From: Bacteroidota bacterium
GTDB lineage: Bacteria; Bacteroidota; Bacteroidia; NS11-12g; UBA9320
Reading direction: 5' to 3'
DNA length: 64,000 nt
Assembly (NCBI GenBank): GCA_024679565.1
Contig: JAIBDD010000002.1
Coordinates: 54,590-118,589 of the forward strand
Shown here: positions 2,965 to 59,787 of the stretch, one piece after another
How positions within the stretch are numbered: position 1 is the first letter of the stretch
How the letters are laid out: every line of letters starts with the position of its first letter
The notes under the pieces: generated by a model
Database searches by the model: none
Told to the model about the DNA's origin: nothing
What the model saw: only the letters and a program-made list of their open reading frames with translations
Translations under genes and position numbers: made by a program

Positions 2965-3006
2965 TCTATTTTAACTAAATTCGTGTTATACAAGTTTAGT
3001 GAAAAT

Positions 3007-3726
3007 ATGCGACGCATTCTTCTTATCATACCGGTTTTGCTTTTTGCCCTATTGGGGTTTAGTCAAAATTGCATCTCCGACCAAAATATTAAAGAGGTAG
3101 GATTTCATCCAAAAACGATAGAACCTGCATACGTTGATTCCGTTTACAAGCAAGTACTTCAAGTACGTATTTTTAAAGATACGTCCGTTGTACTAAATGG
3201 TAACCCAGTGTTGGCTACGATTGATTCTATTGTAGTCAATGGAATTGAAGGCATGCCCACTGGTTTTTACTACTCCTGTTCCAATAAAAACTGTACGTTT
3301 ATTCCTGATTCAACAGGTTGCGCAACTATGGAAGGCACAGCTTCGAAAGGTGATATTGGAGAATACCCGCTAGAAATTCAAATTAAGATTTACGCTAAAA
3401 TATTTGGTACCGTTAGTACAACTCAAGATGATACTATCCGACAGTTTACCATGTTTGTTGAAGATTTAAGTAGTGCTCATACGCTAACAAAACCACGGAC
3501 ATACTTATATCCGAATCCGACGTCAGATGGGACAATTCAATTGTCGAATTCTTTTTATGAAGATTTAGGCGCTGTAACGTGTATCAATGCGCTAGGGCAA
3601 ATCGTTGATTTTAACATAGTAAACGGCAAAATCGATTTGGTTAACCCTGTTGACGGATTGTATACCATTACAATTCAGACCAAAACAGGTCAAACCTTTA
3701 CCGAGCGGGTGTTGTTTAAACACTAA
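3007..3726 (+). CDS. secreted hypothetical protein with type-A T9SS C-terminal sorting domain
   Basis: Start moved to the ATG at 3007 ([20 protein letters not shown] signal peptide). The tracked 2902 start overlaps the convergent receptor gene. C-terminus [12 protein letters not shown]...[23 protein letters not shown] is a Por/T9SS CTD. Confidence 0.7.
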
Positions 3727-28002: not shown

Positions 28003-28136
28003 GTCCTTTTTGTTACAAAGTTCCTGTGGTTTATCAGCTACCACACTGCTCAGAATCAGAAGAATCAACTGATTATCAGCACAAACATTTACAAACTTTG
28101 TAACTAACTTATGAGGTTACCCCCAGACATAAAAAG

Positions 28137-32431: not shown

Positions 32432-32465
32432 AGTATCCAAATGTAATTCATCTATTGTAAACTGA

Positions 32466-33801: not shown

Positions 33802-36456
33802 CTACATTTGGTTCGGAATCTGTTCTGTCGAGAATTCGTATAACCTATCTGCCTCTTCTTCTTTTAGTCGTTTTACCAATTCTAAAGCATCTGGAACAAC
33901 GTCACTACACAACACAATTAACGACCCATCCACCGCGTTGTCTACCGCATGTTTTATGGCCTCAGATTCGGAAGGTATTATGGTTGTTTTAATGTTGGGA
34001 TCATGCATTTTGATTCCATCATCCAACATTTTTATCAACTCCTCCTCCGTTTTACCTCTTAATCGTTTGTCTTGACGAATGATAATCTCATCAAACATAT
34101 CAGCAGCGATGCTACCCATTTCATTATTGTCTTCTACTCTTCTGTCTCCAATTCCTGCTATAATACCGACCTTAACCGTGCACTCAATGTTTTCAATAAA
34201 TTGCTGAAGTGCTCGCATCCCAGCGGGGTTGTGGGCATAATCCAACAGTATTTTGAAGTTCTTAAAGTGGAATAAATTCAATCTTCCTGGCGTTTGGGTT
34301 GGTGAAGGAATAAACGTTTCTAAAGCTACTTTAATATCCTCGTTGCTAAATCCTTGAACGTGTGCAGCTAGTACTGCTGGCAACACATTCTGAATCATAA
34401 ATTTGGCCTTTCCTCCATACGTTAATGGAATATTTACCGCTTTGGATATTCTCATTTTCCATTCGCCACGGCAAATCGTGATATAGCCATTTTCGTAGAT
34501 AGCACTTAAGCCGTCTCGCTTTTGCATGGCTTTGATATGGATGTTTTCCTCGTCCATAGAGAACAGGGCCACATTACATTCCACCTTTTTTCTCATTTTA
34601 TAAACCAGATCATCATCGGCATTCAGGATGGCATAACCATTTGGAAGTACCGTTTCTGGAATTACACCTTTTACTGCAGCGAGTTGCTCGATGGTATGAA
34701 TTCCTTTAAGGCCTAAATGGTCGGCGGCCACATTGGTGACAATTCCAACATCGCAATTCTTAAACCCTAAACCTGCACGCAGCAATCCACCTCTCGCAGA
34801 TTCTAAAACCGCAAAATTGACTGTTGGGTCTTTCAATACAAATTCTGCGCTAGAAGGCCCTGTGCAATCTCCCTTCATCAAAAGTCTATTTTGAATATAC
34901 ACACCATCACTAGTCGTATATCCAACTTTGTAGCCTTTCATTTTCGCCATATAGGCAATCAAACGCGTGGTTGTTGTTTTCCCATTCGTTCCAGAAACAG
35001 CAACAATTGGAATTCTTGCGTTAGAACCTGGAGGGAATAATTTATCTATAACGGGTGCAGCAACATTGCGAGGTAAACCTGTGGTTGGTGCCAAATGCAT
35101 TCTAAACCCAGGGCCCGCATTAACTTCTAGCACCGCTCCTCTAGTATCCGCCAATGGCGTGCTGATATCAGAAGTCATTATGTCGATTCCGCAAATATCC
35201 AGTCCTATAATTTTAGAAATTCTTTCGGCCATAAATACGTTTGCTGGATGCACCACATCGGTTACATCTTCGGCCGTCCCTCCAGTACTTAAATTGGCGG
35301 TGTCTTTTAGTATTAACATTTCACCTTCAGAAATGACTGTGTCTACCGTATATCCCTTAGATTGAATCAACGTTTGTGTCAACTCATTCACCTTTATCGC
35401 GGTTAACACTTTTTCGTGTCCGTATCCACGTCTTGGGTCTTTGTTTACCTCGTCAATTAATTGTTGAATAGTTGATTTACCATCACCAATAACATGAGCC
35501 GGTGTTCTTTTTGCCGCAGCAACCAACTTGTGATTGATAACCAACAGTCGGTAGTCGTCACCCACAATAAACTTCTCAACGATTACCGCTCGAGACACCT
35601 TTTGCGCTTCTCTGAAGGCAACCAAAGCGTCTTCATAACTGTTTATGTTCACTGTAATTCCGCGACCGTGATTCCCATCGATTGGTTTAACCACTAGCGG
35701 AAAGCCAACATATCTGCAGGTCTCTTTCAAACTGCTTTCGCGTCTGATTATTTCTCCTCTTGGTACCTCAACTTCCGCCTGTTCTAAAAGATATTTTGTA
35801 TCCTCTTTGTCGCAGGCTAACTCTACGGCAATGTTGCTCGTTTCGCTTGTTACTGTGGCTTGAATTCTTTTTTGATTAGCTCCGTAACCCAATTGGCAAA
35901 GAGAATATTTATTTAACCTTAACCACGGTATGCCGCGTTTTTCTGCCTCTTCAACGATTGACCCAGTGCTTGGCCCGAGTCGTTCGTTTTCTCTTAAAAC
36001 ACGCATTTCTTGAATGTCTTCATCCAAGTCATATGATTCTCCACTAATTAATGCTTCACAAATGCGAACAGCAGCTCTCGCTGCATAGCGTCCCACATTT
36101 TCTTCCATGTACGCAAAAACCACATTATATACACCCTCTTCTCCATAACCACGTGTTCGTCCGAAGCCAACATCCATACCCGCTAAGGTTTGAATTTCTA
36201 GAGCAATGTGTTCAATAATATGACCCATCCAAGTGCCTTCTTCCACACGTTGAAAAAATCCACCTGGTGTACCCACTGAACATCTGTGGGCAAACATCGT
36301 AGGAAACATGTACTTTAACCTGTCTGCAAAACCATCAATTTTATCCGACGGTTTTTCTTCCATATCTTGAAGGTCAAGCACCATTACGATCAATCTGTGT
36401 CTTCTTACAGACCAATAATTTGGCCCTCGCATTGCTTGTATTTCTCTAATCTCCAT
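33802..36456 (-). CDS. cphA: cyanophycin synthetase
   Basis: 884 aa. N-terminal MRGPNYWSVRRHRLIVMVLDLQD...IDGF matches the CphA N-domain. Central ATP-grasp segment. C-terminal Mur-ligase-type P-loop VSGTNGKTTTTRLIAYM. Confidence 0.9.
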   Translation of the reverse strand: MEIREIQAMRGPNYWSVRRHRLIVMVLDLQDMEEKPSDKIDGFADRLKYMFPTMFAHRCSVGTPGGFFQRVEEGTWMGHIIEHIALEIQTLAGMDVGFGRTRGYGEEGVYNVVFAYMEENVGRYAARAAVRICEALISGESYDLDEDIQEMRVLRENERLGPSTGSIVEEAEKRGIPWLRLNKYSLCQLGYGANQKRIQATVTSETSNIAVELACDKEDTKYLLEQAEVEVPRGEIIRRESSLKETCRYVGFPLVVKPIDGNHGRGITVNINSYEDALVAFREAQKVSRAVIVEKFIVGDDYRLLVINHKLVAAAKRTPAHVIGDGKSTIQQLIDEVNKDPRRGYGHEKVLTAIKVNELTQTLIQSKGYTVDTVISEGEMLILKDTANLSTGGTAEDVTDVVHPANVFMAERISKIIGLDICGIDIMTSDISTPLADTRGAVLEVNAGPGFRMHLAPTTGLPRNVAAPVIDKLFPPGSNARIPIVAVSGTNGKTTTTRLIAYMAKMKGYKVGYTTSDGVYIQNRLLMKGDCTGPSSAEFVLKDPTVNFAVLESARGGLLRAGLGFKNCDVGIVTNVAADHLGLKGIHTIEQLAAVKGVIPETVLPNGYAILNADDDLVYKMRKKVECNVALFSMDEENIHIKAMQKRDGLSAIYENGYITICRGEWKMRISKAVNIPLTYGGKAKFMIQNVLPAVLAAHVQGFSNEDIKVALETFIPSPTQTPGRLNLFHFKNFKILLDYAHNPAGMRALQQFIENIECTVKVGIIAGIGDRRVEDNNEMGSIAADMFDEIIIRQDKRLRGKTEEELIKMLDDGIKMHDPNIKTTIIPSESEAIKHAVDNAVDGSLIVLCSDVVPDALELVKRLKEEEADRLYEFSTEQIPNQM

Positions 36457-36601
36457 ATCCTTCTATGTTATTATGCTGGTAAATGTGACCAAAAGCCACT
36501 AATGACGCGATAGAAGGCGTTGTTGTATACGCCTGCTGTACAATAATAACTTTTTTAATAATTAATGAAATTATACTTTGTTTTATTTACAAATTTGCGG
36601 G

Positions 36602-37465
36602 ATGGCAAAAGGGACACTAATTCCAATTGGAGGTAATGAGGATAAAGGAGATGGTTTAACAGAAAACTACTCGTTAGATTTTATCGAACAGGGAATATTA
36701 TCACACGTTGTTCGCGAATGTGGCGGAACAGATTCTTTAATTGTAGTTATTCCAACAGCATCAAGTATTCCTGAAGAAGTAGGTGAAAATTACCTTGACG
36801 CCTTTCAAAAATTAGGGTGTAACAATGTTTTGGTTTTAGACATTCGAAAAAAAGAAGACTCAGAAACTGCACATGCCATCGATCTGATTACCAGAGCCAA
36901 TTGTGTTATGTTTTCTGGCGGAGATCAGTCAAAAATTGCGAAAAAGATAGGTGGCACCGCTATTCATAAAATTCTAATGGACCGATATCAGGAAGATAAA
37001 GGTTTTGTGATTGCTGGAACAAGTGCTGGTGCGATGGCCATGTCCAATGAAATGATTGCAGGTGGAAGTAGTACGGAAGCATTTATTAAAGGTGCTGTTA
37101 AAATGTACACGGGTTTGGGTTTGGCTCCAGGCATAATGTTCGATACCCACTTCATAATGCGTGGTAGGTTTGGAAGAATAAGTGAAGCTGTTGCTAAGCA
37201 CCCAGAATTAATAGGCATAGGCTTAGCTGAAGACACTGGCTTGGTGATTAAAGAGGGTAATGACCTGAAAGTAATTGGGTCAGGGATGGTCATCATTTTT
37301 GATGGTAGCAGCTTGGTGCACAACAACGAAAAAATATTAGAGCCTGGTACACCAATGACCATAACCGACTTGAAGGTTCACGTGCTCTCTAATTCAGATA
37401 GATTTTCATTGACAGAAAGAAAGGTTACGGTACTTCCAATTGACGCACCTTTCGAGTTCGACTAA
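36602..37465 (+). CDS. cphB: cyanophycinase (peptidase S51)
   Basis: GTLIPIGGNEDK N-terminus. Ser nucleophile block VIAGTSAGAMAMS. Diverges from cphA across a 145-bp promoter region. Start set at MAKGTL (36602). Confidence 0.85.
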   Translation: MAKGTLIPIGGNEDKGDGLTENYSLDFIEQGILSHVVRECGGTDSLIVVIPTASSIPEEVGENYLDAFQKLGCNNVLVLDIRKKEDSETAHAIDLITRANCVMFSGGDQSKIAKKIGGTAIHKILMDRYQEDKGFVIAGTSAGAMAMSNEMIAGGSSTEAFIKGAVKMYTGLGLAPGIMFDTHFIMRGRFGRISEAVAKHPELIGIGLAEDTGLVIKEGNDLKVIGSGMVIIFDGSSLVHNNEKILEPGTPMTITDLKVHVLSNSDRFSLTERKVTVLPIDAPFEFD

Positions 37466-37471
37466 TACTTG

Positions 37472-38404
37472 CTATTTGTAAATCGCAACCTGGGTTTCTT
37501 GACCAGAAATATGTTGCGCTCTATACATCCCTTCGGTATTAAATGGCATAGTTATATTGCCTTCTGAATCGACAGCAATTAATCCCCCATCTCCACCGAT
37601 TTCAAGTATTCTCTTGTTAATTACTTCGTTAGCAGCCTCCTCAAGTGTGCAACCTTTAAATTCTATAAGTGCGCTTACCTCATAAGCAACAACACCTCGA
37701 ATAAAGAACTCTCCACTGCCGGTACAAGAAACAGCACACGTTTTATTATTTGCATAGTTCCCAGATCCAATCATTGGGCTATCACCTATTCTCCCAAAAC
37801 GCTTGTTAGTCATTCCGCCAGTAGATGTAGCAGCAGCTACGTTGCCATTTTGATCTAATGCAACAGCACCTACAGTCCCAAATTTGTGATCCTTAGACTT
37901 AGAATGATCGAGTTGAAAAGAATCCGTGTCTTTAATTTCTTGCCATTGGTCGTAACGCAATTGGTCAAAGAAGTATGCCTCGTCCACTGTTTTGACGTTT
38001 TGAGATTTTGCAAATTCCATAGCTCCATCTCCACCTAAAAAAACGTGTTCAGAATTATCCATGACCTTGCGTGCCAACTGAATTGGGTTTTTAATCCCAG
38101 ATATTAATCCTACTGCACCTGCTTCTTTGTTGGACCCGTCCATTATGGAGGCATCCATTTCATGTGCGCCATCTGCCGTGAAGACACTTCCTTTGCCTGC
38201 ATTAAACAGAGGCGAATCTTCCAAGACTGTAACCGCTTTTTCAACGGCATCGACAGCTGAACCACCATTTTGCAAAATTTCGTATCCAGCATTAATACTG
38301 GCTTCGAGTGATGCTTTATACGCTGCTTCTTTACTGGTCGTCATCATACCTTTAACCAAGGTTCCTGCCCCACCATGTATAGCGATAGAAAATTTATTCA
38401 TCAT
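37472..38404 (-). CDS. iaaA: isoaspartyl dipeptidase / plant-type L-asparaginase (Ntn hydrolase)
   Basis: IAIHGGAGT N-terminus. Autoprocessing/nucleophile region GTVGAVALDQNGNVAAATSTGGMTNKRFGRIGDSPMIGSGNYA. Confidence 0.85.
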   Translation of the reverse strand: MMNKFSIAIHGGAGTLVKGMMTTSKEAAYKASLEASINAGYEILQNGGSAVDAVEKAVTVLEDSPLFNAGKGSVFTADGAHEMDASIMDGSNKEAGAVGLISGIKNPIQLARKVMDNSEHVFLGGDGAMEFAKSQNVKTVDEAYFFDQLRYDQWQEIKDTDSFQLDHSKSKDHKFGTVGAVALDQNGNVAAATSTGGMTNKRFGRIGDSPMIGSGNYANNKTCAVSCTGSGEFFIRGVVAYEVSALIEFKGCTLEEAANEVINKRILEIGGDGGLIAVDSEGNITMPFNTEGMYRAQHISGQETQVAIYK

Positions 38405-43492: not shown

Positions 43493-43918
43493 ATGCATAA
43501 AATGAAATCGAACAAAGAATATACTGGTCCTATTATCCTTTTTGACGGTGTTTGCAATTTATGCAACTCTTCGGTCGACAAGGTTATACGATGGGATAAG
43601 AAAAAGAAATTTCGATTTGCTTCCTTACAATCAGCGTTTGCTATAAACCTCCTGAATAACTCTTCCGTTAATCCTAAAGATTTAAAGAGCATTGTATACT
43701 ACCATGAAGGAAAAGTCAAACAAAAGTCGAACGCCGTTTTGGCGATCGTTTTTCAACTTGGCTTTCCCTATTCGTTACTCTATGTCTTTAAACTTATTCC
43801 TCGCTTTTTGCGCAATTATGTATACGATATAGTGGCTAAAAATAGGTACCAGTGGTTTGGCGAAAAAGAGACTTGTCGGATTCCAACGGAAGAAGAGAAG
43901 TCCCTATTTATGGGTTAG
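43493..43918 (+). CDS. DCC-family (DUF393) thiol-disulfide oxidoreductase
   Basis: ILFDGVCNLCNSSVDKVIRWDKKKKFRFASLQS contains the hallmark DCC motif. Confidence 0.75.
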   Translation: MHKMKSNKEYTGPIILFDGVCNLCNSSVDKVIRWDKKKKFRFASLQSAFAINLLNNSSVNPKDLKSIVYYHEGKVKQKSNAVLAIVFQLGFPYSLLYVFKLIPRFLRNYVYDIVAKNRYQWFGEKETCRIPTEEEKSLFMG

Positions 43919-46070
43919 TTTGGTTTAGACTTGCCCCTGCTGATCTATCTACTTTTATGGATGGGTTTCCTGAGTAACTAAAATTCGATGCTGCGTTTAA
44001 ATCCCCTGTTAATTCTGAGGTTACTTCAGCTGATGCTTTAGACGCTCCACTCATATCAACATTTGCATTTTCCGTTGTTAGATTTTTTCCATTAAAGTTT
44101 GATGCCCCATTTAACTCGAGCAACAAGAGGTCGGTTTTACCGGCAAACGTTGACATAGACCCACCTGAACCATCGATTGAAATTTTTTCTGAAATAATGT
44201 TGTTCACTTCTACTTCGGACGCCCCTGTCAATCGAAGATCAAAATATGACTTCTCATTGTCAGAAGCGTCCAAAGTAACTTTACAAGATCCTGCAACCTC
44301 TAACGCTTTTAAGTTTGAAAGCTGAATAGTGATGACTTCGTCTTCACCAACAAAGCTCTTTTTTTGTGTTAACTCAATTTTGTTGTCAGATATATCGACA
44401 TCCACCCATTTACGTCCATCATCACGTGCTGGAATATCAACACCAGATTCATTGCCTTCAATTACACGAACAGTTAGTGCACCATTAACTTCAAGCTCGT
44501 TGTAATCTCCATCCATACTGTTATATTTCTGTTTGGATATTTTCTCAGAACAATCTTCACATCTAAAGCCCGCCTCTGACATATAAAAAACATGACCGGC
44601 CATATTCGCATCATCGATATCTTGAAGGTTGTCTACATGGTGGATTATCTGTTTGGTAGATTCATGAAATATGACTGTCTGCCCAATCGGGACCTTAACC
44701 GTTAAAAATAATGATGCGGACGTAATGTGCCTCTTATCATTCAATAACACCTTCTCACTAAGCAATAAAGTGTTGTTTGTCAATCTATAGGCGGGGGCAA
44801 TTGCTTCGGTAGATTCTTTAGCAACATCTTCATTCCTTCCTCTAGCAGACTTTTGAACTTTTAGCTCAACGTTATTTCCAGACGATTGGATTACATCAAG
44901 TTTAATGTTTCTCCTCGTTTTCGTATACTCTTCTGCTAACAAATCATCTACCCGCAAAATAATTGTATCGCTATTCACATCAAGTGTTTCGACAACTGTA
45001 GCAGTTCCTTCCGACTGGTATTCTCGTGCATTATAAAAGAATCCAATTATGGCTAAAATAATGGCAAGAAACCAACCTGAAATCATAGATTGCTTTACCG
45101 GTTTTGATGGTTTAGGAACGGCCGAAAGTACTTCTGGTAATATGTGAATGGCTAGATACGCCAATGGTATAGCAAAAATCAAGTAGAACGCAATTTTAAA
45201 GAACCACGATCCGGCACCCAGAACCATAACATTAAATACATTTCCGTCAATCCGAATATTTGAATCCAGGTTAAAGAAATGGCCATTAAACAAAATACCC
45301 ATCAAAGACGAAATGAGTAAAACAATAATTCCTACGAAAGCCATCACTGCAAAGAGTTTGAAAAATGCACCGAATACCCGCTTAAGAAACCCAAAAAAGG
45401 ACTCAAAAAAATGCGATACGGACTTTCTGTTTTCTGGAGAAGCGATACGGTCGTAAGCTGCTTTTGCCTCACTATGTATGGTATTCTTTATATTCTCTAT
45501 ATTGGGTGACTCACCCATCATTTCTAGTTTTTCAGCAGTAGTTTTTGCCCCAGGTAAAATGGCCCACAAAATGATATATATCCAAAACCCGAACCCGAAC
45601 ACCAATAAAGAAACTAGCCATAGAATACGCAGTACCGTTGGGTCAAAGTCAAGATACTTGGCAAGCCCCGCACAGACACCACCGATTTGCTGGTTGTCTA
45701 TGTCTCGAAACAAGCGTCTTTTCGCTCTAGATGAAGATTTCGTTTTTGCGTCTTTTTGTTTTGGCTCTTCGGTCGCATTTCCCGAAGTAGTTTCTTGTGG
45801 TTCTGCTTCGGCTTCAAAGTCTGATGGGTAACCCATTGTTTGTGCCACATCCTCCACATCCTGCATGCTGATTGAAATTTTTGTTTCATTCAATTTAGCC
45901 TGAAGCATTTCTCCAACACGCAACTCAATGTCGGCAATGATCTCATCACCGTTTTCCGTATCTCTGAAATGATTCCCAATGTTTTTTAAATAATCCCTTA
46001 GGGAGTCAAAAGCATCTTCTTCGATTGTAATGGCAATTCCGCCAATGTTGATGGTAGCTATCTTATTCAT
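43908..46070 (-). CDS. large PspC-domain membrane protein with C-terminal DUF2807/GIN-like beta domain
   Basis: PspC block GGVCAGLAKYLDFDPTVLRILWLVSLLVFGFGFWIYIILWAI. Several further TM helices. C-terminal Gly/Ala/Ser/Asn-rich repeat region. Confidence 0.75.
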   Translation of the reverse strand: MNKIATINIGGIAITIEEDAFDSLRDYLKNIGNHFRDTENGDEIIADIELRVGEMLQAKLNETKISISMQDVEDVAQTMGYPSDFEAEAEPQETTSGNATEEPKQKDAKTKSSSRAKRRLFRDIDNQQIGGVCAGLAKYLDFDPTVLRILWLVSLLVFGFGFWIYIILWAILPGAKTTAEKLEMMGESPNIENIKNTIHSEAKAAYDRIASPENRKSVSHFFESFFGFLKRVFGAFFKLFAVMAFVGIIVLLISSLMGILFNGHFFNLDSNIRIDGNVFNVMVLGAGSWFFKIAFYLIFAIPLAYLAIHILPEVLSAVPKPSKPVKQSMISGWFLAIILAIIGFFYNAREYQSEGTATVVETLDVNSDTIILRVDDLLAEEYTKTRRNIKLDVIQSSGNNVELKVQKSARGRNEDVAKESTEAIAPAYRLTNNTLLLSEKVLLNDKRHITSASLFLTVKVPIGQTVIFHESTKQIIHHVDNLQDIDDANMAGHVFYMSEAGFRCEDCSEKISKQKYNSMDGDYNELEVNGALTVRVIEGNESGVDIPARDDGRKWVDVDISDNKIELTQKKSFVGEDEVITIQLSNLKALEVAGSCKVTLDASDNEKSYFDLRLTGASEVEVNNIISEKISIDGSGGSMSTFAGKTDLLLLELNGASNFNGKNLTTENANVDMSGASKASAEVTSELTGDLNAASNFSYSGNPSIKVDRSAGASLNQTNP

Positions 46071-47181: not shown

Positions 47182-47266
47182 TCTTGACTATATAGTTACA
47201 ACTATGTGTGCGTAAAATACGTACTTTGTTAGCATTAAGGTGTTATACAAATTTACTCACGATCAA

Positions 47267-49318
47267 ATGCCGACAAAAATCATTCTAGCCCTTTTATCAG
47301 TTTTGCTGATATCGTCTTGCAAACGAAAAGAGAAAACCTGGGACACAAATATTAAAGCTCCGTTATTCAAAGCAGAACTTGGTTTCAATAATCTTTTAGA
47401 TGACAGCCTTCTGGTTGTTCAATCAGATAAAAGTTATAGCCTAAGTTATGACTATGGATATGCCATCGACAGTGTTGGAAGTTATCTTGATGTTCCAGAC
47501 ACTCTTGACAAGGTGAAAATCACGCTTGACAAGCTTGTGTTGGCTGACCGTACGTATGTAGACACCTTTACATTGCGCGAAATGGATCCTCAAACAGGTT
47601 TGTTTGATGGGTTAACTCTACCCTTTGATGCTCAAAAAATTGAAAACCCACAAGGAGAACAAGAAATAGATGTTAGTGAGGAGTTCTTCCAAACAGCCAA
47701 ATTCAACAAAGGCTTTTTGGATATTAAGATTCACAACGACCTACCCGTTTATGTGGATGTAATCATATTTAAACTCGTCAATAAACAAAGTGGTGAAATT
47801 GTAGCACAAGACACCTTTACAGATATTGCACCAGATGATTCTTCGTCCAAATCTATTGATTTGGCCGGTAAGGTTGTGGACGGCGTGATGGTTGGCAGCA
47901 TTGTTAGAGTCGAAACACGAGCAAGCAACGGTCCTGTGCTTATTGATGCCGATAAAGGCGTTCGTCTATCGTTGTCCGTTCATTCTCTTGAACCAGAGTA
48001 TGCAACGGCCATTTTTCCTGAACAAACTTTAGTAGAAGACAAACAGGAAGTAGTGTATAAATTTGGTGGTCCGCTTATTACAGAAATTAAGGCACGAAGT
48101 GGTACGGTCAAAATGCGAATTTCCAGTACCATCGCTGAAGAAATCATCATCGACTATTCCTTCCCGAATAGTGGGGAAAATGGAGATTTTAATAAGCCAT
48201 TTAATAAGCAATATCGTGTACCCGCTGCTAAACCAGGCACAACACAGGTTATTGAGGGCACCTTCCCTTTGGACGGATATGTGATGCAATACAAAGGACA
48301 AGATCCAACACAACCACCCTTTTTCAACACCGTATATAGTGAACTTACGGCTCGAACTGTGTATTCAGGAGAAGTAAGAGACTTGTCTTTAGATGATTTT
48401 GTTGAGATAGAATTTGGGTTGGTAGATATAAAACCAGAATATGCCTTTGGCGACTTTGGAAAGAAAGAATTTGAATTGAACGAAACTGTTGATATTCCTA
48501 TTTTCAAAAACGTATCTGGCGCAATCGATTTAGAATCGGTTAAAATGAATCTCTTCCTTGATAATGCTTTTGGCATCCAAGCGTTAACGACAGTGAATTC
48601 AATCACCGCCAGTAACTCAATGAACAATAACTCGGTTTCATTAACGCACCCAGAGGCCATTGGTCAAGACATTTTATTAACCAGAGCAACCAACCCCCCT
48701 TTGTTAGCCCATACGCAGTTTTATGAGTTTGATCAAAACACATCAAATATTAAAGCGTTTTTCGAGGTTCTCCCGGATCAAATAACCACCGATTTAAAAA
48801 TAATTAGTCGCCCTAACGGAAGTAATGACTATACGGATTTTGTTAAAGACGAAAGCTACCTTCGGGCTAGGTTAAATGTTGTAATGCCGGTTCAATTCTC
48901 TGCCGACAACCTCACGTTAGTAGAAAAACAACCCTTTGATTTCAATTCTCTTGAAAATGCCGAAAAGATAAAAAGTGGGTCATTCAAGCTAAAAGTACTT
49001 AACGACTACCCATTTGACGCCGAGATAAAAGTTGAGTTTTTAAATGAAGTTGACGAAGTTCTTCTACCTCTATTTGCCTCAGGCGAAAAAATTGAAGCAG
49101 CACAAATAAATGGTGCAACAGGTAAAACAGATGAGGCGGCGCTTAGTTACCTAACTGCTACCATATCAGAACAACAGATGGACATCATTCGGGAGTCAAC
49201 AAAGGTGCGCATAACCAGTGTGTTTGATTCACCCAATGGTTCGCCCAACAAAATATTTAGTGATTACTTACTTAAAACTCAATTGTCGGCAGACTTTGTT
49301 TATGAACAGACTTTATAA
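47267..49318 (+). CDS. hypothetical lipoprotein (~680 aa)
   Basis: Start set at MPTKIILALLSVLLISSC (lipobox). Tracked start is 47240. No recognised domain. Confidence 0.55.
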   Translation: MPTKIILALLSVLLISSCKRKEKTWDTNIKAPLFKAELGFNNLLDDSLLVVQSDKSYSLSYDYGYAIDSVGSYLDVPDTLDKVKITLDKLVLADRTYVDTFTLREMDPQTGLFDGLTLPFDAQKIENPQGEQEIDVSEEFFQTAKFNKGFLDIKIHNDLPVYVDVIIFKLVNKQSGEIVAQDTFTDIAPDDSSSKSIDLAGKVVDGVMVGSIVRVETRASNGPVLIDADKGVRLSLSVHSLEPEYATAIFPEQTLVEDKQEVVYKFGGPLITEIKARSGTVKMRISSTIAEEIIIDYSFPNSGENGDFNKPFNKQYRVPAAKPGTTQVIEGTFPLDGYVMQYKGQDPTQPPFFNTVYSELTARTVYSGEVRDLSLDDFVEIEFGLVDIKPEYAFGDFGKKEFELNETVDIPIFKNVSGAIDLESVKMNLFLDNAFGIQALTTVNSITASNSMNNNSVSLTHPEAIGQDILLTRATNPPLLAHTQFYEFDQNTSNIKAFFEVLPDQITTDLKIISRPNGSNDYTDFVKDESYLRARLNVVMPVQFSADNLTLVEKQPFDFNSLENAEKIKSGSFKLKVLNDYPFDAEIKVEFLNEVDEVLLPLFASGEKIEAAQINGATGKTDEAALSYLTATISEQQMDIIRESTKVRITSVFDSPNGSPNKIFSDYLLKTQLSADFVYEQTL

Positions 49319-50495
49319 TCTCGTCGTTCTTATTCTTTTATACGGCACCTGCTTCGGACAGGAAGGTGACTCGGTAAATCAAAATACGACCTTCCAAAAG
49401 GAAATATCCATTGACAAAAAATTAGTTGTTGTTGGAAATGGCGGTGTCATTACAAGCTTTCTCAATAATAGTTTAGTGAAGGAAAATCATTGGACTGATG
49501 AAATCATTCAAAATCAAATCAACGCCCTGGGTAGCAAAAATCGTTTTGGTGCTTATGTGGCTTTTGATGCAACATACCACATAGGGAATGGCACTTTTTT
49601 CGGAGCTGGTTATCAAAACATAATTGGTGCGACTACACAAAAATCTATTTTTCAACTGATTCTAGAGGGAAACAAAAACCAACCCAACATTACCTTAGAT
49701 CAGCATAACGGGTTCGAACAAATCGGGTTTGCATTTGTAACTGTCGGCAAAGAGTTCGTTGACTCTTCCGCTCAACGTAAAACTAGTTTTAGCGTAAACC
49801 TTTACGGAAGACAAAATTATTCTAAGTATAGTGCCGATGGAGGCACCTTTGATTTAGACAGCGCTGGTGAATCAATCCAAGTAAACGATGCCGCCCTCTC
49901 AATTTCCCAAGACATTTCAGATCCATTCAACACCTTTGGTATAGGCGCTAGTTTTAAAATGAATCAAATTTTCAACGAAAATCTTATCTCGTTTGAAATC
50001 AACAATCTTGGCGTTTTCTTTGGTTCCAATATCCGCTCGGCACAAATGATAGAGGCATGCACCTTCGACGGTTTCAACCTTTCTTCTCAAATAAATAACG
50101 CCGGAGGCGTTACACTTCAAGATTCCGTAAATAACAATTACTTTGAAACAGATACTTCAAGTGCTGTTCAGTTATTGCCGTTTTCAACACGTTTTGCGAT
50201 AAGTAAACCACTTGGAAATAGGAATTCTTTTAGAGCAGAAATACATTACCTATACTTCACAGGTTATTACCCCTTGTTAAAAGCTGAATACCATCAGCGT
50301 TTTAAGGGCACAAATGCCTCTTGGAATGTAGGTGCACGTGTTGGTGGTTTTGGAAATTATGCCCTGTCGCTTGGAACCTATATTCCCCTCGGCAAACACA
50401 CGATAACAGCAAAAATTGCTGGTTTAGAATCTATGGTTTCAGAAAATCTACCTGTGAATTGGTGTGGTCAAATCGGTTTAAAGTTTATGCTTTAA
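49302..50495 (+). CDS. hypothetical secreted protein, likely outer-membrane beta-barrel
   Basis: Start at MNRLYNLVVLILLYGTCFGQ (49302), overlapping the upstream gene by 17 bp. Gly/aromatic-rich alternating segments. Ends GQIGLKFML. Confidence 0.5.
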   Translation: MNRLYNLVVLILLYGTCFGQEGDSVNQNTTFQKEISIDKKLVVVGNGGVITSFLNNSLVKENHWTDEIIQNQINALGSKNRFGAYVAFDATYHIGNGTFFGAGYQNIIGATTQKSIFQLILEGNKNQPNITLDQHNGFEQIGFAFVTVGKEFVDSSAQRKTSFSVNLYGRQNYSKYSADGGTFDLDSAGESIQVNDAALSISQDISDPFNTFGIGASFKMNQIFNENLISFEINNLGVFFGSNIRSAQMIEACTFDGFNLSSQINNAGGVTLQDSVNNNYFETDTSSAVQLLPFSTRFAISKPLGNRNSFRAEIHYLYFTGYYPLLKAEYHQRFKGTNASWNVGARVGGFGNYALSLGTYIPLGKHTITAKIAGLESMVSENLPVNWCGQIGLKFML

Positions 50496-54102: not shown

Positions 54103-54215
54103 TTTATTGTACACACAAAGATAACTAAACCGCTGTGGTGTAAGCCAATTCTGTCTACAATTTATTAATTTGCGATTACTAACTACAGAAAGTAACATTT
54201 GAAATCATTGATATA

Positions 54216-57200
54216 ATGCGTAATTATCGTTCAGCTCATACTCTGCAAAATAGAAACTTGCTGCCCAACATTTTCCGATGGGCGTCTTCACTAATTTTCT
54301 TACTGTCCACATTTTCAGCGACTTACGGACAAGGCGTTGGTGTAAATGAGGATGGTACTGATCCGGACCCATCTGCCATTCTTGACGTAAAGTCAAATTC
54401 AAGAGGTATGTTGGTTCCACGACTCACAAAAGCCGTAAAGCTAGGAATACCCGGCCCTGCCAACGGTTTGTTGGTGTACCAAACCGACGACACGATTGGT
54501 TTTTGGTATTATGACATAAATAGGTGGAAACCCGTTTTTCAAAATATCACGGCAGGTAATGGCTTAACGGGCAACAAAATTGAAGGGTATGGCACCATTA
54601 ATTTAGAACCTACAGGAATTACGACCGGTCAATATGGAAATGCCGACTCTATACCACAGTTTACGGTTAATGCATTCGGACAGTTGGTGTTTGCGCGCAA
54701 TGTTGCTTTGCGAGAACAAGATGGCATTATTGGAAATGAAATAACAGACACCGCAAATAGTTTAGGACTGCTTAACAGAGCAGGTTCTGGAACCTCTGCT
54801 GATCCATACACCGTTGGTGTAAACAGTGGAAGTTCACAAAATGATATTTGGATGTGGGACGGCAACAATTGGGTGTTAACCCAGTTTCCATTTGAACAAG
54901 ACAGTATAATCGGAAATGAAATTAGTGATACCGCCCAATCTAGGGGCATATTGATTCGGAATGGTCGTGGAAACTCCGCAAATCCATACACACTAGGGGT
55001 AACAGCTGGTTCGGCTATCGGGGATGTTTTTATGTGGGACGGTAATAAGTGGGTTTCAAATCCCATTGTTTTCCCAACAGAACAAGACGGCATTATTGGA
55101 AACGAACTTACGGATACCACTAACGCTAGGGGCGTCATAAACCGTCAAGGAAGTGGCACCACAGCAAATCCGTATAAAATATCAGTAAACGCAGGAAACA
55201 ATGTCGGTGACGTTTGGATGTGGGACGGCAATAAATGGACGTCATCATCTGTCACTATTCCAAGCGAACAAGACAGTGTTATTGGAAACGAGGTAACGGA
55301 TACAATTAATGCACGTGGCGTGTTAAACCTCTACGGTTCAGGCACACAAACAAATCCATTAAAAATGGGAATAGAACCAGGCAACTCGACTGGTGATGTG
55401 TGGATGTGGAATGGCTCCTCTTGGGTGCCCTCTCAGATTACTCACCCACCAGTTATTATTCCAAAAGAAAAAGACAGTGTCATTGGTAACGAAATTGCAG
55501 ATACATTTAACACGTATGGTTTGATTGTCAGACAAGGCAGCGGAACAGATGTTGACCCTTATACCATAGGAGCAAAACCTGGAACCAGCGCAGGACAATC
55601 TTTAGTGTGGGATGGAACAAAGTGGGTGCTTACAACCATCGTTATTCCATTGGAAAAAGACAGTGTCATTGGTAATGAAATTGCAGATACACTGGGGTCT
55701 AATGGGATTTTAACAAGGGGCGGAACTGGGGTCGACGCAGACCCATTTACAGTTGGCATAAACAGTGGTTCAGCCTCCGGTGATGTTTGGATGTGGAACG
55801 GTACTTCTTGGGTGCCTACACAAATCACGCACCCAAATGAAGTGGATGGAATAATTGGTAATGAGTTGACTGATACAATAAACGCAAGAGGTGTTTTGCA
55901 GCGTTCAGGATCTGGAACGGTAGCGAACCCATACAAAATTGGGGTAACGACAGGTAAAAGCAACGGAGACGTATGGATGTGGAATGGCTCGAATTGGGTA
56001 CCGTCACAAATCGTTCACCCGAACGAGGTTGATGGTATTGTGGGTAATGAAGTTACAGACACCATTGCCAATGGCTTCTTAAACTTAACTGGTGCAGGTA
56101 CCGCAGCTAGCCCTAAAAAGGTGGGACTAAAGTCTGGTAATACAGTAGGAGATGTTATTGTTTGGGATGGCACAACATGGGTGCCCGGTTATTTAGACCG
56201 AAACACGTTGGATATGGCCTATGACGAAGGCGGTGCTGGAAATGGTAGGACAATTACCGCCGATAATGGCGCAGTAGAAATAAAAGGAGCTGATGGGTTT
56301 TTGGTTGACGGAAAAGTTGGGACAGGCGCTACAGCGGGTTCCATTGGTGCAAGTACACGTTTACACTTTAACCCAAGAACATCTGCATTTCGCGCAGGAA
56401 CTGCTGTAGCAACAGAGTGGGACGCAGCCAATTTGGGGCTTTACTCTACAGCTTTTGGATATGGCTCGCTTGCTTCAGATGACTACACATTTGCTGCCGG
56501 TAAAGGCGCAAGTGCCGTTGGTGATCACAGTATTGCCATCGGTGATAGTACAGTAACTCTACTTGAGTATTCCATTGCCATGGGAAATAGGTCGGTGACA
56601 GGTGGTAAAAACACAATGGCCATTGGAACAGGAAATACCGCATATGGTCAATACTCCTTTATTACAGGAATTAACTCTAGATCATTAGGTACAAATTCTG
56701 GAATATTTGGTGAAGAGTGTTTTGTATTAAGTGGATACAAACATGGCTATGCCTTTGGTCATAGAGATACCGTAAAGGGCGATTATGCTGTGGCCATCGG
56801 TCATAATGCATATTCTGAAGGAACTGGAGCGGTTGCCATTGGATTTAACGTGCGCACAAATAACCCGTATTCTGTCGCTATTGGAAACAATGCCGATGCT
56901 ATTGCTGACAGGTCTGTGGCTATAGGAAGCTTTGTGTCGACCAACCTAAAAAATGGCTCATTCATATTTGGTGACGGAAGTACAACAACAACCATGTTTA
57001 GTCCTGCTCAACACACCATGACTATGCGTTTTAACAACGGGTATAGACTTTACTCCAAATCAGATTTAACTACTGGTGTTTACATGCTGAATGGCGGTAC
57101 ATCATGGACTTCGGTTTCGGATAGAAACATGAAAGAAAATTTTGAAGATATAAATGGAGAAGACCTTCTCGATAAAATAGAAGATCTACCCATTACTAAA

Positions 57201-57464
57201 TGGAATTACAAAGGAAACCCCGATAGCGTTAAGTTCATTGGGCCAATGGCGCAAGACTTCCATAAATCTTTTGGTTTGGGTGGTTCTGACAGCCTTGGTA
57301 TTAGCACACTAGCTTTTGATGGTGTAAACATCGCAGCCGTGCAAGCTCTTATTGTGCGTACCAATAAGATAGAAAATTTAGAATCAACAATATCTAAACA
57401 AGGTGCTGAAATTAAAGCCCTAAAAGAAGAGATTGTAGCTATTAAGAATTTACTTAAAAAATAG
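54216..57464 (+). CDS. phage-tail-fibre-like secreted protein with 8 tandem ~62-aa repeats and a C-terminal peptidase S74 intramolecular chaperone domain
   Basis: Signal peptide (..STFSATYGQ). Conserved N-terminal block DPSAILDVKSNSRGMLVPRLT. Repeats EQDGIIGNEITDT...GSGT..NPY..GV..G...GDVWMWDGN.W. Hep_Hag/beta-helix-like AIG-rich region. C-terminus VSDRNMKENFEDI...KFIGPMAQDF... plus coiled coil matches the endosialidase/tail-fibre IMC domain. Confidence 0.75.
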   Translation: MRNYRSAHTLQNRNLLPNIFRWASSLIFLLSTFSATYGQGVGVNEDGTDPDPSAILDVKSNSRGMLVPRLTKAVKLGIPGPANGLLVYQTDDTIGFWYYDINRWKPVFQNITAGNGLTGNKIEGYGTINLEPTGITTGQYGNADSIPQFTVNAFGQLVFARNVALREQDGIIGNEITDTANSLGLLNRAGSGTSADPYTVGVNSGSSQNDIWMWDGNNWVLTQFPFEQDSIIGNEISDTAQSRGILIRNGRGNSANPYTLGVTAGSAIGDVFMWDGNKWVSNPIVFPTEQDGIIGNELTDTTNARGVINRQGSGTTANPYKISVNAGNNVGDVWMWDGNKWTSSSVTIPSEQDSVIGNEVTDTINARGVLNLYGSGTQTNPLKMGIEPGNSTGDVWMWNGSSWVPSQITHPPVIIPKEKDSVIGNEIADTFNTYGLIVRQGSGTDVDPYTIGAKPGTSAGQSLVWDGTKWVLTTIVIPLEKDSVIGNEIADTLGSNGILTRGGTGVDADPFTVGINSGSASGDVWMWNGTSWVPTQITHPNEVDGIIGNELTDTINARGVLQRSGSGTVANPYKIGVTTGKSNGDVWMWNGSNWVPSQIVHPNEVDGIVGNEVTDTIANGFLNLTGAGTAASPKKVGLKSGNTVGDVIVWDGTTWVPGYLDRNTLDMAYDEGGAGNGRTITADNGAVEIKGADGFLVDGKVGTGATAGSIGASTRLHFNPRTSAFRAGTAVATEWDAANLGLYSTAFGYGSLASDDYTFAAGKGASAVGDHSIAIGDSTVTLLEYSIAMGNRSVTGGKNTMAIGTGNTAYGQYSFITGINSRSLGTNSGIFGEECFVLSGYKHGYAFGHRDTVKGDYAVAIGHNAYSEGTGAVAIGFNVRTNNPYSVAIGNNADAIADRSVAIGSFVSTNLKNGSFIFGDGSTTTTMFSPAQHTMTMRFNNGYRLYSKSDLTTGVYMLNGGTSWTSVSDRNMKENFEDINGEDLLDKIEDLPITKWNYKGNPDSVKFIGPMAQDFHKSFGLGGSDSLGISTLAFDGVNIAAVQALIVRTNKIENLESTISKQGAEIKALKEEIVAIKNLLKK
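54714..56210 (+). repeat. in-frame tandem DNA repeat, 8 units of ~186 bp (one of ~204 bp), within the tail-fibre-like gene
   Basis: Recurring blocks such as gatgtttggatgtgggacggcaa and gaacaagacagtgtcattggaaacga at about 186-bp spacing. Confidence 0.75.
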
Positions 57465-57483
57465 AAAATAGCCCTTACGCTAA

Positions 57484-59787
57484 ATGAATAAACTGTTATC
57501 ATATATCGTTTTAACACTATCGGTATCTCCCGTATTTGCACAGGGCTGGGTTACCAAAGATGCCCATGTGGTGTTAAAAGATAATGCCCATGTGGTAATA
57601 CATGGCGCAACAGCAAATTATACCAGTAAAGGAACCGCCTTGGTTACTGCCTCAAACAACGGCACTGTGCACCTTGATGGAGATTGGAATAACATTGGAA
57701 CATCACCTGCAGTCGGAAACAACGACGGGACTGTAGAGCTAACAGGTAACAACCAGCAAATCATGGGTAGTCGGTCTACCTCATTTAATAACTTAACACT
57801 GTCGGGCGGCGGTATAAAGTCAATATTGGTTTCGACCCTCGTTGGTGGTGGTTTTTCGGGTGCCAAAAATGGTAAATTGGACTTAACCAACCGACACTTG
57901 TTGTTGAATTCCAATACTTTAATAATAAATAATCCGTCAGCGGGTGCCTTTTCCAGAACAAGCGGTTTGCTGCTTGGAGAAACGAATCCGAGTGTTGGCT
58001 ATAGCAAAGTACAATGGAATGTTAGGAGCGGTGTTCCTGGATCCCTACATAGCATACCCTTTGGCACGACCGATTTTCTGTATATACCCCTGTCGATTGA
58101 TGTTACATCAGCTGGCACACAAGTAGCCGATTCTGGATACATTGCGGTAGCCACCTACCCGACTAATACAACAGCCGTACCCAACAATAGGCCCTTACCA
58201 ATAGGTGTGCCTCATCTCGATAACCAATATAAAATTGAAAATGATACAAAAGCGCTAGACCGTTTTTTTGTTATTACAACCAATGGTTATACGTCTAACC
58301 CAATTGTTAAACTTGGGTTTACCTACGTCGATAGAGAGTGGGATGGCTCTGCAGGCGGCCTTAATGATATTATAGAAAAGGATTTGAAACCATCTCGGTT
58401 CGATGTGGGTTTTGCGTCTTGGAATTACAACATAAATGGGACCACGAGTGTTTCCAATAACGAAACGGTAACAGAAAATCTTAGAAGTTATTCCGGTGCG
58501 TGGGTGCTAAGTAATTACCCGTACTGTCCTGTTCCAAACTTTACCTTTAACAATGACTGTTATTTGGAACCCATTTTGTTTACAGACTCCTCCTATATTC
58601 AATTGGGGAGTATCGACACCTCCGTTTGGGAGTACGAAAACAATACTGCGCACAATGTTAATACATTGCTTCATGGCTTTAGCAGCGACGGCACCTTTAA
58701 CATAAAACGAAAGGTTCGTGGCAATCGTGGGTGTTGGGATTCCATTACCAAGTCTGTTCAGGTGTACCCCTTACCGCAAAGTAGTTTCATGCATAATGAT
58801 ACCTGTGCAAGCGATGTAACAAAGTTTACCTCGACGTCAACCTCAACTTTGGGTATGCCGTTAACGCAAGATTGGACTATTGATGGTTCAACATATAAAA
58901 CGGTTTCGCCAAATCATGCCTTCGGCACCACAGGCATAAAGGACGTTACCTTAATCACAAAAAACACGTTTAATTGCTTTGACACCTTGAATAGTTCTGT
59001 TGAAATTAAACCTTTACCAGAAATAATTTTCCGGTTTGAAAATATTTGTGAACGTCAGGATGCCTTTTTCTACGACAGCTCTAAAACCAAAGGGAGTATT
59101 GACGATTGGCGCTGGAAAGTCAGAGGAAAAATTGTTTCTTATCTACAAGACCATCAGCAAGTCTTCAATACGGCTGGAAGTTATCCTGTTCAATTACGTG
59201 TTCAAAATAGTTTCGGTTGCCTAGATTCAGTAGAGCAAAATATAACTGTATGGCCTAAAGCCAAAGCCAAGTTTGACCTTTTTCCAGAGGATATTTATAT
59301 CACAGATCCTTTCGTAAACTTTGTTGAAAGTGGCTCAGACGCAAATTCGTGGAATTGGTATTTCGGTGATTTTAGTCCAGAAGAATTTGGCCCAGAAGTA
59401 ATGCATCAATATTTAGACACTGGAATATTTAGAGCGAGGCTCATCGCCAATAACAACTTTCGATGTGCCGATACTTTTTATCGTACCGTTATCATTAAAC
59501 CTAACTTAAACATCTTCATACCAAATGCATTTAGCCCTGGCCCTGATAACGATGTAAACACCACATTTGGTCCTGGCGGCATGTTATATGGTATTAAGTC
59601 TTTAGATATGACCATTTACACAAGATGGGGTGAGAAAATTTACCACACCGATGACATTGAAAAACCTTGGAATGGAACATATCAAGGGGCATTGGTTCAA
59701 GAAGGAACTTACCTATACTTAATTACGGTTAAAAACGTCTACAACGACATATTTAGGTATTCCGGTTCGTTAACCGTGATACGCTAA
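57484..59787 (+). CDS. PKD-domain secreted protein with type-B T9SS (gliding-motility-associated) C-terminal domain
   Basis: Signal peptide MNKLLSYIVLTLSVSPVFAQ. PKD-like WNWYFGDFSP. C-terminus IPNAFSPGPDNDVNTTF...YTRWGEKIY...WNGTYQGALVQEGTYLYLITV matches the type-B CTD pattern (PNAFSPNGDGxND...RWG...WDGxxxG...GxYxY). Confidence 0.75.
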   Translation: MNKLLSYIVLTLSVSPVFAQGWVTKDAHVVLKDNAHVVIHGATANYTSKGTALVTASNNGTVHLDGDWNNIGTSPAVGNNDGTVELTGNNQQIMGSRSTSFNNLTLSGGGIKSILVSTLVGGGFSGAKNGKLDLTNRHLLLNSNTLIINNPSAGAFSRTSGLLLGETNPSVGYSKVQWNVRSGVPGSLHSIPFGTTDFLYIPLSIDVTSAGTQVADSGYIAVATYPTNTTAVPNNRPLPIGVPHLDNQYKIENDTKALDRFFVITTNGYTSNPIVKLGFTYVDREWDGSAGGLNDIIEKDLKPSRFDVGFASWNYNINGTTSVSNNETVTENLRSYSGAWVLSNYPYCPVPNFTFNNDCYLEPILFTDSSYIQLGSIDTSVWEYENNTAHNVNTLLHGFSSDGTFNIKRKVRGNRGCWDSITKSVQVYPLPQSSFMHNDTCASDVTKFTSTSTSTLGMPLTQDWTIDGSTYKTVSPNHAFGTTGIKDVTLITKNTFNCFDTLNSSVEIKPLPEIIFRFENICERQDAFFYDSSKTKGSIDDWRWKVRGKIVSYLQDHQQVFNTAGSYPVQLRVQNSFGCLDSVEQNITVWPKAKAKFDLFPEDIYITDPFVNFVESGSDANSWNWYFGDFSPEEFGPEVMHQYLDTGIFRARLIANNNFRCADTFYRTVIIKPNLNIFIPNAFSPGPDNDVNTTFGPGGMLYGIKSLDMTIYTRWGEKIYHTDDIEKPWNGTYQGALVQEGTYLYLITVKNVYNDIFRYSGSLTVIR

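What the first reader, a model, noticed from the sequence alone, without database searches (positions are those of the whole stretch)
57484..59787. Type-B T9SS cargo (PKD protein) immediately downstream of the tail-fibre-like gene, with no adjacent PorP/SprF partner
The C-terminus (IPNAFSPGPDNDVNTTF...YTRWGEKIY...WNGTYQG...GTYLYLITV) fits the gliding-motility-associated type-B CTD rather than the type-A CTD used by the other four T9SS cargos in this window. In studied Flavobacteria, type-B cargos usually need a cognate PorP/SprF-like outer-membrane protein encoded next door. Here the downstream genes are purS and pssA on the opposite strand. The gene starts 19 bp after the tail-fibre gene stop on the same strand, suggesting co-transcription and perhaps a functional pair: a fibre plus a PKD adhesin.
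Basis: partly seen in the sequence, partly recalled or inferred. Interest (0 to 1): 0.6.

Follow-up and report, generated by a model that had tools for sequence, protein, structure and literature searches.

The report
Orphan type-B T9SS protein paired with fibre
This gene encodes a cell-surface protein with a type-B signal for the Bacteroidota type IX secretion system; lacking an adjacent shuttle gene is already known for such proteins, but its strict pairing with a tail-fibre-like gene across many uncultured Bacteroidota appears undescribed.

Summary
ORF 57484-59787 (+, 767 aa) has a signal peptide, a 330-aa head with no Pfam family (predicted beta-helix plus beta-sandwich), four PKD domains and a C-terminal type-B T9SS domain. 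That domain scores 43.7 bits on PF13585 (cut-off 27) and 32.8 on TIGR04131 (cut-off 35), with no type-A match. It starts 19 nt after the fibre-like gene 54216-57464. No PorP/SprF gene lies in the 64-kb window, in the 10 kb beyond it, or in 28 related loci. By contrast, 17 of 58 loci of other related type-B cargos have one.

Such "orphan" type-B cargos are already known. F. johnsoniae has three of twelve, and they share one unlinked shuttle (PMC12618676).

The new point is the gene pair. A fibre gene with the same N-terminal domain (PF26696) sits 1-41 nt upstream of every ~765-aa homologue whose upstream side was recovered, in at least five different flanking contexts. The fibre shafts and tips vary.

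I read this as a two-gene surface module whose shuttle is encoded elsewhere. How the two proteins cooperate is inferred, not shown. Moderate interest.

The parts
54216..57464 (+). Upstream fibre-like gene (1082 aa). It has a signal peptide, an N-terminal PF26696 'PTL_trimer' domain (about aa 40-110), about nine repeats of roughly 62 aa (aa ~165-640), YadA-head-like repeats (aa ~725-940) and a C-terminal Peptidase_S74 intramolecular chaperone (aa 968-1019). It has no T9SS CTD.
   Evidence: YadA_head 76.3 bits, Peptidase_S74 42.6 bits; precomputed PF26696.
57465..57483 (+). 19-nt spacer between the fibre stop codon and the cargo start codon, with no hairpin and no promoter-like box.
57484..59787 (+). 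The whole type-B T9SS cargo gene (767 aa plus stop).
57484..57540 (+). Sec signal peptide (MNKLLSYIVLTLSVSPVFA | QG). Gln20 is invariant in the 20 aligned homologues.
   Evidence: Sequence inspection and alignment. The AF2 model shows a low-confidence N-terminal helix at aa 2-12. No signal-peptide predictor was available.
57547..58533 (+). Head region 'T_N' (aa 22-350): a right-handed beta-helix (about aa 22-160) plus a beta-sandwich (about aa 175-345). It has no Pfam or NCBIfam family. Its conserved loop is YPTN....PNNRPLPIGV, followed by DRF.
58534..59508 (+). Stalk of four PKD/Ig-like domains (aa ~351-675) with conserved cysteines.
   Evidence: (PKD_4, four stretches).
59509..59784 (+). Type-B T9SS C-terminal domain (aa 676-767).
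   Evidence: (matches the C-terminus of Aureispira GhpA, E 9e-27).

Best explanation
The gene encodes a Sec-exported protein that the type IX secretion system moves across the outer membrane through its type-B C-terminal domain. A beta-helix/beta-sandwich head sits on a stalk of four PKD domains.

[quoted passage not shown] That could be an orphan shuttle or the core PorP.

The gene is the second gene of a conserved two-gene operon. The first gene encodes a signal-peptide-bearing, CTD-less fibre, presumably trimeric, with a conserved PF26696 N-terminus and variable shaft and tip. The two products act together at the cell surface, most likely as one adhesive appendage in which the T9SS-anchored protein partners or holds the fibre.

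Shown: the domain architecture, the CTD type, the absence of a neighbouring shuttle gene and the conserved adjacency. Inferred: actual secretion, the identity of the shuttle, co-transcription and any physical contact between the two proteins.
For: CTD type: PF13585 43.7 bits (cut-off 27), TIGR04131 E 5.7e-8, no type-A match. The motifs shared by type-B CTDs that do have adjacent PorP/SprF genes are kept.

T9SS present: four type-A cargos lie in the same window.

No shuttle nearby: a six-frame scan of the window gave a best E of 0.64. PorP/SprF was found in 0 of 28 head-domain loci against 17 of 58 control type-B loci, Fisher p = 9e-4.

[quoted passage not shown] P. gingivalis PG1035 is proposed to form a complex with PorP and PorE (as cited in PMC12618676).

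Module: a PF26696 fibre gene lies directly upstream, on the same strand and with a 1-41 nt gap, in 21 of 22 loci with a ~765-aa homologue; the remaining locus is cut by the contig end. Overall this is 23 of 28 head-domain loci against 1 of 58 controls, p = 5e-15. It holds in at least five different flanking contexts and down to about 32% identity.

The fibre C-termini vary (S74 or phage Collar; 470-1090 aa) while the N-terminus is kept. L006 and L017 have two or three tandem fibres ahead of a single cargo gene.

No terminator or -7 box lies between the two genes.
Against: TIGR04131 falls 2 bits under its curated cut-off.

The rest of the genome could not be searched, so the shuttle is only presumed.

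A mirror-tree test found no specific co-evolution between the fibre N-domain and the head domain. The correlation was r = 0.59, against 0.79 with the PKD stalk, and the partial correlation was -0.36. No fusion of the two domains exists among 147 family representatives.

The head domain also occurs on ~520-aa type-A CTD proteins (71 of 93 scanned). One of these is not next to any PF26696 fibre. The head's conserved function is therefore not necessarily fibre binding.

All homologues come from uncultured MAGs, so there are no experimental data.
Confidence: 0.6

Rival explanations
1. The two genes encode independent surface adhesins that are merely co-expressed. The conserved adjacency would reflect shared regulation or inheritance as a block, not physical cooperation.
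For: The mirror-tree test gave no specific signal between the fibre N-domain and the head domain. No Rosetta-stone fusions were found. The head domain is also found without PF26696 fibres, in L032, L033 and L087.
Against: Adjacency survives at least five independent rearrangements of the flanks and sequence divergence down to about 32% identity. The gaps are 1-41 nt. The association is specific to the head domain: 23 of 28 loci against 1 of 58 control type-B loci.
Confidence: 0.25
2. The type-B protein is a carrier. It binds the folded, CTD-less fibre in the periplasm and takes it through the T9SS translocon ('piggy-back' export), then tethers it to the shuttle.
For: The fibre has a signal peptide but no T9SS CTD; its C-terminus is an S74 chaperone, which in phage fibres is removed by self-cleavage. 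The conserved part of the fibres is the N-terminus, as in phage fibres that dock by their N-termini. Several fibres can precede one carrier gene.
Against: My literature searches found no precedent for piggy-back export by the T9SS. PF26696 is widespread on proteins with no such partner. No co-evolution signal was found.
Confidence: 0.12
3. The beta-helix head is an enzyme, such as a glycan lyase or depolymerase as in phage tailspikes and pectate lyases. It would act on the substrate that the fibre binds.
Confidence: 0.08
4. The CTD is degenerate or unused, and the protein stays periplasmic or is not expressed.
For: TIGR04131 scores 32.8, below its cut-off of 35. No shuttle gene lies nearby.
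Against: PF13585 is well above its threshold. Nineteen CTD positions are invariant across homologues down to 33% identity. The exact protein was found on contigs from many samples (32 collection blocks; 23 contigs read).
Confidence: 0.05

Closest known systems
Orphan type-B T9SS substrates of Flavobacterium johnsoniae (Fjoh_1123, Fjoh_1720, Fjoh_4934), served by the unlinked SprF-like shuttle Fjoh_1677 (PMC12618676)
   Same: A type-B CTD, putative adhesin architecture and no porP/sprF-like gene next door.
   Different: The head domain has no Pfam or NCBIfam family, and no cultured or characterised organism appeared among the homologues found. The gene is strictly coupled to an upstream fibre gene. 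The shuttle is unidentified.
SprB/SprF and Fjoh_3952/Fjoh_3951 cognate pairs (type-B cargo with the shuttle gene directly downstream)
   Same: The same class of secretion signal. The CTD motifs align with those of cargos that have adjacent PorP/SprF genes.
   Different: No downstream shuttle in any of the 28 loci. The conserved neighbour lies upstream and is a fibre, not an outer-membrane beta-barrel.
Aureispira grappling-hook protein GhpA (PDB 9flp and related entries)
   Same: The best solved-structure match: a type-B CTD (E 9e-27) and tandem Ig/PKD-like domains.
   Different: GhpA is a 5898-aa chain in these PDB entries. This protein is 767 aa with a beta-helix head. The similarity is limited to generic modules.
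Phage tail fibres and tailspikes with a Peptidase_S74 intramolecular chaperone (relevant to the partner gene)
   Same: The partner gene has a C-terminal S74 chaperone. Its N-terminus is conserved while the distal part varies, and fibres occur in tandem cassettes.
   Different: The setting is chromosomal and housekeeping (glyA, purS). Only the S74 domain matches phage records, and the head domain has no phage homologue.

Membership tests
T9SS type-B CTD cargo (TIGR04131 / PF13585 CHU_C) | A C-terminal domain that matches the type-B model above its curated threshold | tested here: met
   PF13585 scores 43.7 bits against a cut-off of 27, at aa 678-753 of 767. TIGR04131 scores 32.8 bits against a cut-off of 35, E 5.7e-8, covering model positions 3-84 of 85. 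It therefore passes Pfam and is marginally below the NCBIfam threshold.
T9SS type-B CTD cargo (TIGR04131 / PF13585 CHU_C) | Conserved type-B sequence motifs in the last ~100 residues | tested here: met
   P680, N681, F683, P685, N692, F695, R714, W715, G716, E717, W729, G731, Y733, G735, Y743, Y745 and G761 are invariant in 20 homologues. They align with CTDs of cargos that have an adjacent PorP/SprF gene. The paper's motifs A-E are not spelled out in its text, so correspondence to them was not checked letter by letter.
T9SS type-B CTD cargo (TIGR04131 / PF13585 CHU_C) | An N-terminal Sec signal peptide | tested here: met
   By inspection only: MNKLLSYIVLTLSVSPVFA|QG, with Gln20 invariant. No predictor was run.
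T9SS type-B CTD cargo (TIGR04131 / PF13585 CHU_C) | Secretion depends on the T9SS and on a PorP/SprF-family shuttle | not testable with these tools
   This needs genetics or biochemistry. The only indirect support is the four type-A cargos in the window.
Cognate type-B cargo / PorP-SprF gene pair | A porP/sprF-like gene directly downstream of the cargo gene | tested here: not met
   No PF11751 match among the scanned window ORFs. The own HMM gave a best E of 0.64 over six frames, and 0 of 28 related loci had a hit. Positive control: 22 of 41 ORFs downstream of other type-B cargos match PF11751.
Orphan type-B substrates (PMC12618676) | A type-B CTD without a linked shuttle gene, with an unlinked SprF-like shuttle elsewhere in the genome | tested here: inconclusive
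   The first half is met. The second half was not testable, because only 64 kb plus 10 kb of the genome could be read.
T9SS type-A CTD cargo (TIGR04183 / PF18962) | A C-terminal match to the type-A model | tested here: not met
   No hit at E<=1. The same scans detect type A in four other window proteins.
PKD-domain surface proteins | PKD domains above threshold | tested here: met
   PKD_4 scores 76.7 bits over four stretches and PKD scores 36.3 bits. The AF2 model shows four Ig-like domains at aa ~351-675.
Peptidase_S74 chaperone-bearing fibres (partner gene) | A C-terminal S74 intramolecular chaperone domain | tested here: met
   PF13884 scores 42.6 bits against a cut-off of 22, at aa 968-1019 of 1082. 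This region matches phage fibre records. Autocleavage was not testable.

The most novel reading that the evidence does not exclude
The pair is a previously unrecognised two-partner surface-fibre system of Bacteroidota. In it, a type-B T9SS protein (beta-helix head, PKD stalk) would be the dedicated carrier or anchor that exports and/or displays fibres lacking a T9SS signal, which would dock through their conserved PF26696 N-terminus. Swapping fibre cassettes would change specificity. This would explain how CTD-less 'tail fibre domain-containing' proteins reach the Bacteroidota cell surface.
Probability: 0.2. Interest if true: 0.7.

Novelty: new variant of a known kind. Interest (0 to 1): 0.42.

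Why it matters
Type-B T9SS cargos and their shuttles are under active study, because the CTD-shuttle pairing decides whether a protein is moved by the gliding machinery or anchored statically.

This family is a clean natural case of a type-B cargo that never travels with its shuttle gene. Instead it always travels with a fibre gene that has no secretion signal for the outer membrane. If the two proteins form a complex, that would point to a route by which CTD-less fibres are displayed, and it would give a modular adhesin system to test.

If they do not form a complex, the finding is simply one more orphan type-B adhesin. In that case it mainly serves as an annotation for a 330-aa head domain that has no family name (574 cluster representatives).

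Tried and rejected
- **Type-A or no CTD:** rejected.
- **A hidden or divergent PorP/SprF in the window:** rejected. Pfam and NCBIfam scans of nearly all ORFs of 100 aa or more found none, and a six-frame HMM scan found none. The conserved no-family ORF pair 47240-49318 / 49218-50495 is absent from the distant loci, so it is not part of the module.
- **Prophage origin:** rejected. The flanks are housekeeping genes, the head domain has no phage match, and only the S74 domain of the fibre matches phage records.
- **Rosetta-stone fusion of the fibre N-domain with the head domain:** none among 147 representatives.
- **Mirror-tree co-evolution:** no specific signal.
- **Fold search of the head domain:** only generic beta-helix matches. 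The full-model Foldseek search gave only tandem Ig/PKD matches. The afdb50 library was not available.
- **Literature:** no paper links S74 or tail-fibre proteins, or PF26696, with the T9SS.
- **Whole-genome search for orphan shuttles:** not possible.

Full report
**Observation.**
The upstream ORF 54216-57464 ends with TAG, and 19 nt separate it from the ATG.

The C-terminus matches the Pfam CHU_C T9SS signal domain (PF13585, aa 678-753, 43.7 bits against a cut-off of 27). It also matches the NCBIfam type-B sorting domain TIGR04131 (aa 679-766, 32.8 bits, E 5.7e-8), which is 2 bits under that model's cut-off. No type-A model matched even at E<=1.

Four other proteins in the window do carry type-A CTDs: 2902-3726, 24321-26459, 26518-28068(-) and 29186-32596(-). 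The downstream genes, convergent with the cargo, are purS and a CDP-alcohol phosphatidyltransferase.

**Anatomy of the cargo.**
- A signal peptide comes first (MNKLLSYIVLTLSVSPVFA|QG). Gln20 is invariant in 20 homologues.
- Residues 22-350 match no Pfam or NCBIfam family. AlphaFold2 on an alignment of 23 sequences gives a confident model (pLDDT 88, pTM 0.89) of a right-handed beta-helix followed by a beta-sandwich.
- Residues ~351-675 are four PKD/Ig-like domains.
- Residues 676-767 are the CTD. Its best solved relative by sequence is the C-terminus of the Aureispira grappling-hook protein GhpA (E 9e-27).

**No shuttle gene nearby.**
Pfam or NCBIfam scans of nearly all window ORFs of 100 aa or more gave no PorP_SprF match. 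The 10 kb beyond the window end holds TonB-dependent receptors, a DUF4249 protein, a redoxin and another type-A cargo.

As a positive control I took the ORFs just downstream of other PKD/type-B cargos fetched from GTDB genomes. Of 41 such ORFs, 22 match PF11751. An HMM built from those 22 finds 24 PorP/SprF genes in 17 of 58 control loci. It finds none in the 28 loci that carry the head domain, and none in a six-frame scan of the window (best E 0.64). Fisher p is 9e-4.

**This is already a known situation.**
In F. johnsoniae only 9 of 12 type-B genes are adjacent to a sprF-like gene. The three orphans (Fjoh_1123, Fjoh_1720, Fjoh_4934) are all handled by one unlinked SprF-like shuttle, Fjoh_1677 (PMC12618676). 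PorP-like proteins anchor type-B cargos at the cell surface (PMC9143113). The missing neighbour is therefore expected for a minority class and is not in itself surprising.

**What is new: the gene pair.**
The exact protein was found on contigs from many samples (32 collection blocks listed; 23 contigs read). Homologues of about 765 aa, at 41-96% identity plus more distant ones at about 32%, occur only in uncultured Bacteroidota MAGs.

- In the close relatives the synteny glyA | fibre | cargo | purS is kept (L001-L005, L007-L012).
- In L006, L013-L020, L027 and L030 the flanks are entirely different, with at least five contexts. A fibre gene still lies directly upstream on the same strand, 1-41 nt away.
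- These fibres share only their N-terminus: a signal peptide, then QNVGI..G..P..SA.LDV.S..KG.L.PR. This is Pfam PF26696 'PTL_trimer' in the precomputed annotations.
- Their shafts and tips differ: 470-1090 aa, ending in Peptidase_S74 or a phage-tail Collar domain.
- An HMM of this N-domain finds 27 proteins in the 86 loci then held (L001-L086). Of these, 26 are in head-domain loci, immediately upstream of the cargo (in L023 with a 104-aa ORF in between) or in tandem fibre arrays ahead of it (two in L006, three in L017). Only one lies in a control locus. Counted by loci this is 23 of 28 against 1 of 58, p = 5e-15.
- Among loci with a ~765-aa homologue, the single exception (L024) is cut by the contig end.
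- No intrinsic terminator is predicted in or near the spacer. No Bacteroidetes -7 box (TAnnTTTG) lies on the + strand between 54124 and 60835.

**Wider family of the head domain.**
A full HMMER pass over 1.84 billion cluster representatives finds 574 proteins with the head domain at E<=1e-3. Most are about 520 aa. Of 93 scanned, 71 carry a type-A CTD and 12 a type-B CTD. The head therefore rides on either signal.

- Two type-A members lie directly downstream of SprB-repeat type-A cargos (L088, L089).
- One type-A member follows a PF26696/S74 fibre (L031).
- Others have no such neighbour (L032, L033, L087).

There is thus a general tendency for head-domain proteins to follow a large filamentous surface-protein gene. 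The strict coupling is specific to the ~765-aa type-B form.

**Mechanism.**
I commit to the following reading.

1. The protein is exported by Sec and then translocated by the T9SS.
2. It is collected and held by a PorP/SprF-family protein encoded elsewhere in the genome.
3. It is made from one transcript with the fibre and works with it at the surface. Most probably it is the fibre's anchored partner.

The reasoning for step 3 is by analogy with phage fibres. There, a conserved N-terminus with a variable distal part marks the docking end, and several fibre genes can precede one partner gene. This step is inference.

Two tests that could have supported physical contact did not. No fused proteins exist among 147 representatives. 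A mirror-tree analysis gives r = 0.59 between the fibre N-domain and the head, lower than the 0.79 with the PKD stalk, and the partial correlation is -0.36.

Rival readings are listed with their probabilities: independent co-expressed adhesins, piggy-back export of the CTD-less fibre, an enzymatic head, and a dead CTD.

**Comparison and novelty.**
As a secretion substrate, this is a new member of the known class of orphan type-B cargos. The conserved fibre-plus-type-B module and the unnamed head domain were not found in the literature I could search. Neither the head domain nor the fibre, apart from its S74 domain, has a phage counterpart. I rate it a new variant of a known kind, of moderate interest.

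The decisive work is a whole-genome PorP/SprF census, complex prediction, transcript mapping and secretion assays.

Noticed in passing
window 47240-49318 (+) and 49218-50495 (+): Two adjacent ORFs (about 690 and 400 aa) with no Pfam or NCBIfam match. They are conserved in the same order upstream of the sulfate permease and/or glyA in L001, L004, L005, L009 and L012, but absent from distant module loci.
   Followed up: partly
window 33802-38404: An apparent cyanophycin metabolism cluster: cyanophycin synthetase (33802-36456, -), a Peptidase_S51 cyanophycinase-like gene (36578-37465, +) and an Asparaginase_2 / isoaspartyl peptidase (37472-38404, -).
   Followed up: no
window 54696-56321 (fibre gene, aa ~165-700): About nine tandem protein repeats of roughly 62 aa (EQD.IIGNE..DT...G.L.R.G.G...NPY..GV..G...GDVWMWDG..W). 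Self-matches are 51-56% identical and match no named family.
   Followed up: partly
L006 5932-9959; L017 1391-7863: Tandem arrays of two or three fibre genes that share the PF26696 N-domain, ahead of a single head-PKD-type-B gene. This resembles interchangeable receptor-binding cassettes.
   Followed up: partly
L088 3-1217; L089 2-3478: Type-A-CTD members of the head-domain family lie directly downstream of large SprB-repeat type-A cargos. The head-domain family as a whole may be an accessory to filamentous adhesins.
   Followed up: partly
L051 7678-9688: The reverse gene order: a PF26696-type protein (383 aa) immediately downstream of a type-B cargo that lacks the head domain. It is the only fibre-N-domain hit among the 58 control loci.
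   Followed up: no
window, whole: TAnnTTTG is depleted overall (49 found against 77.6 expected). It nevertheless sits just upstream of several start codons (7197, 9583, 12743, 15064, 21168, 60836), consistent with Bacteroidetes -7 promoter boxes. The fibre gene has only a near-match (TAACATTTG at 54193-54201).
   Followed up: no
window 24321-26459 (+): A Laminin_G_3 protein whose C-terminus matches type-A TIGR04183 (34.9 bits). It also matches, weakly and below cut-off, the type-C ChiA-like sorting signal NF033708 (21.4 bits).
   Followed up: no
window 43908-46070 (-): A large PspC-domain protein fused to a ToastRack domain and a DUF2807 'adhesin head' domain (719 aa), next to a thiamine pyrophosphokinase gene.
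   Followed up: no
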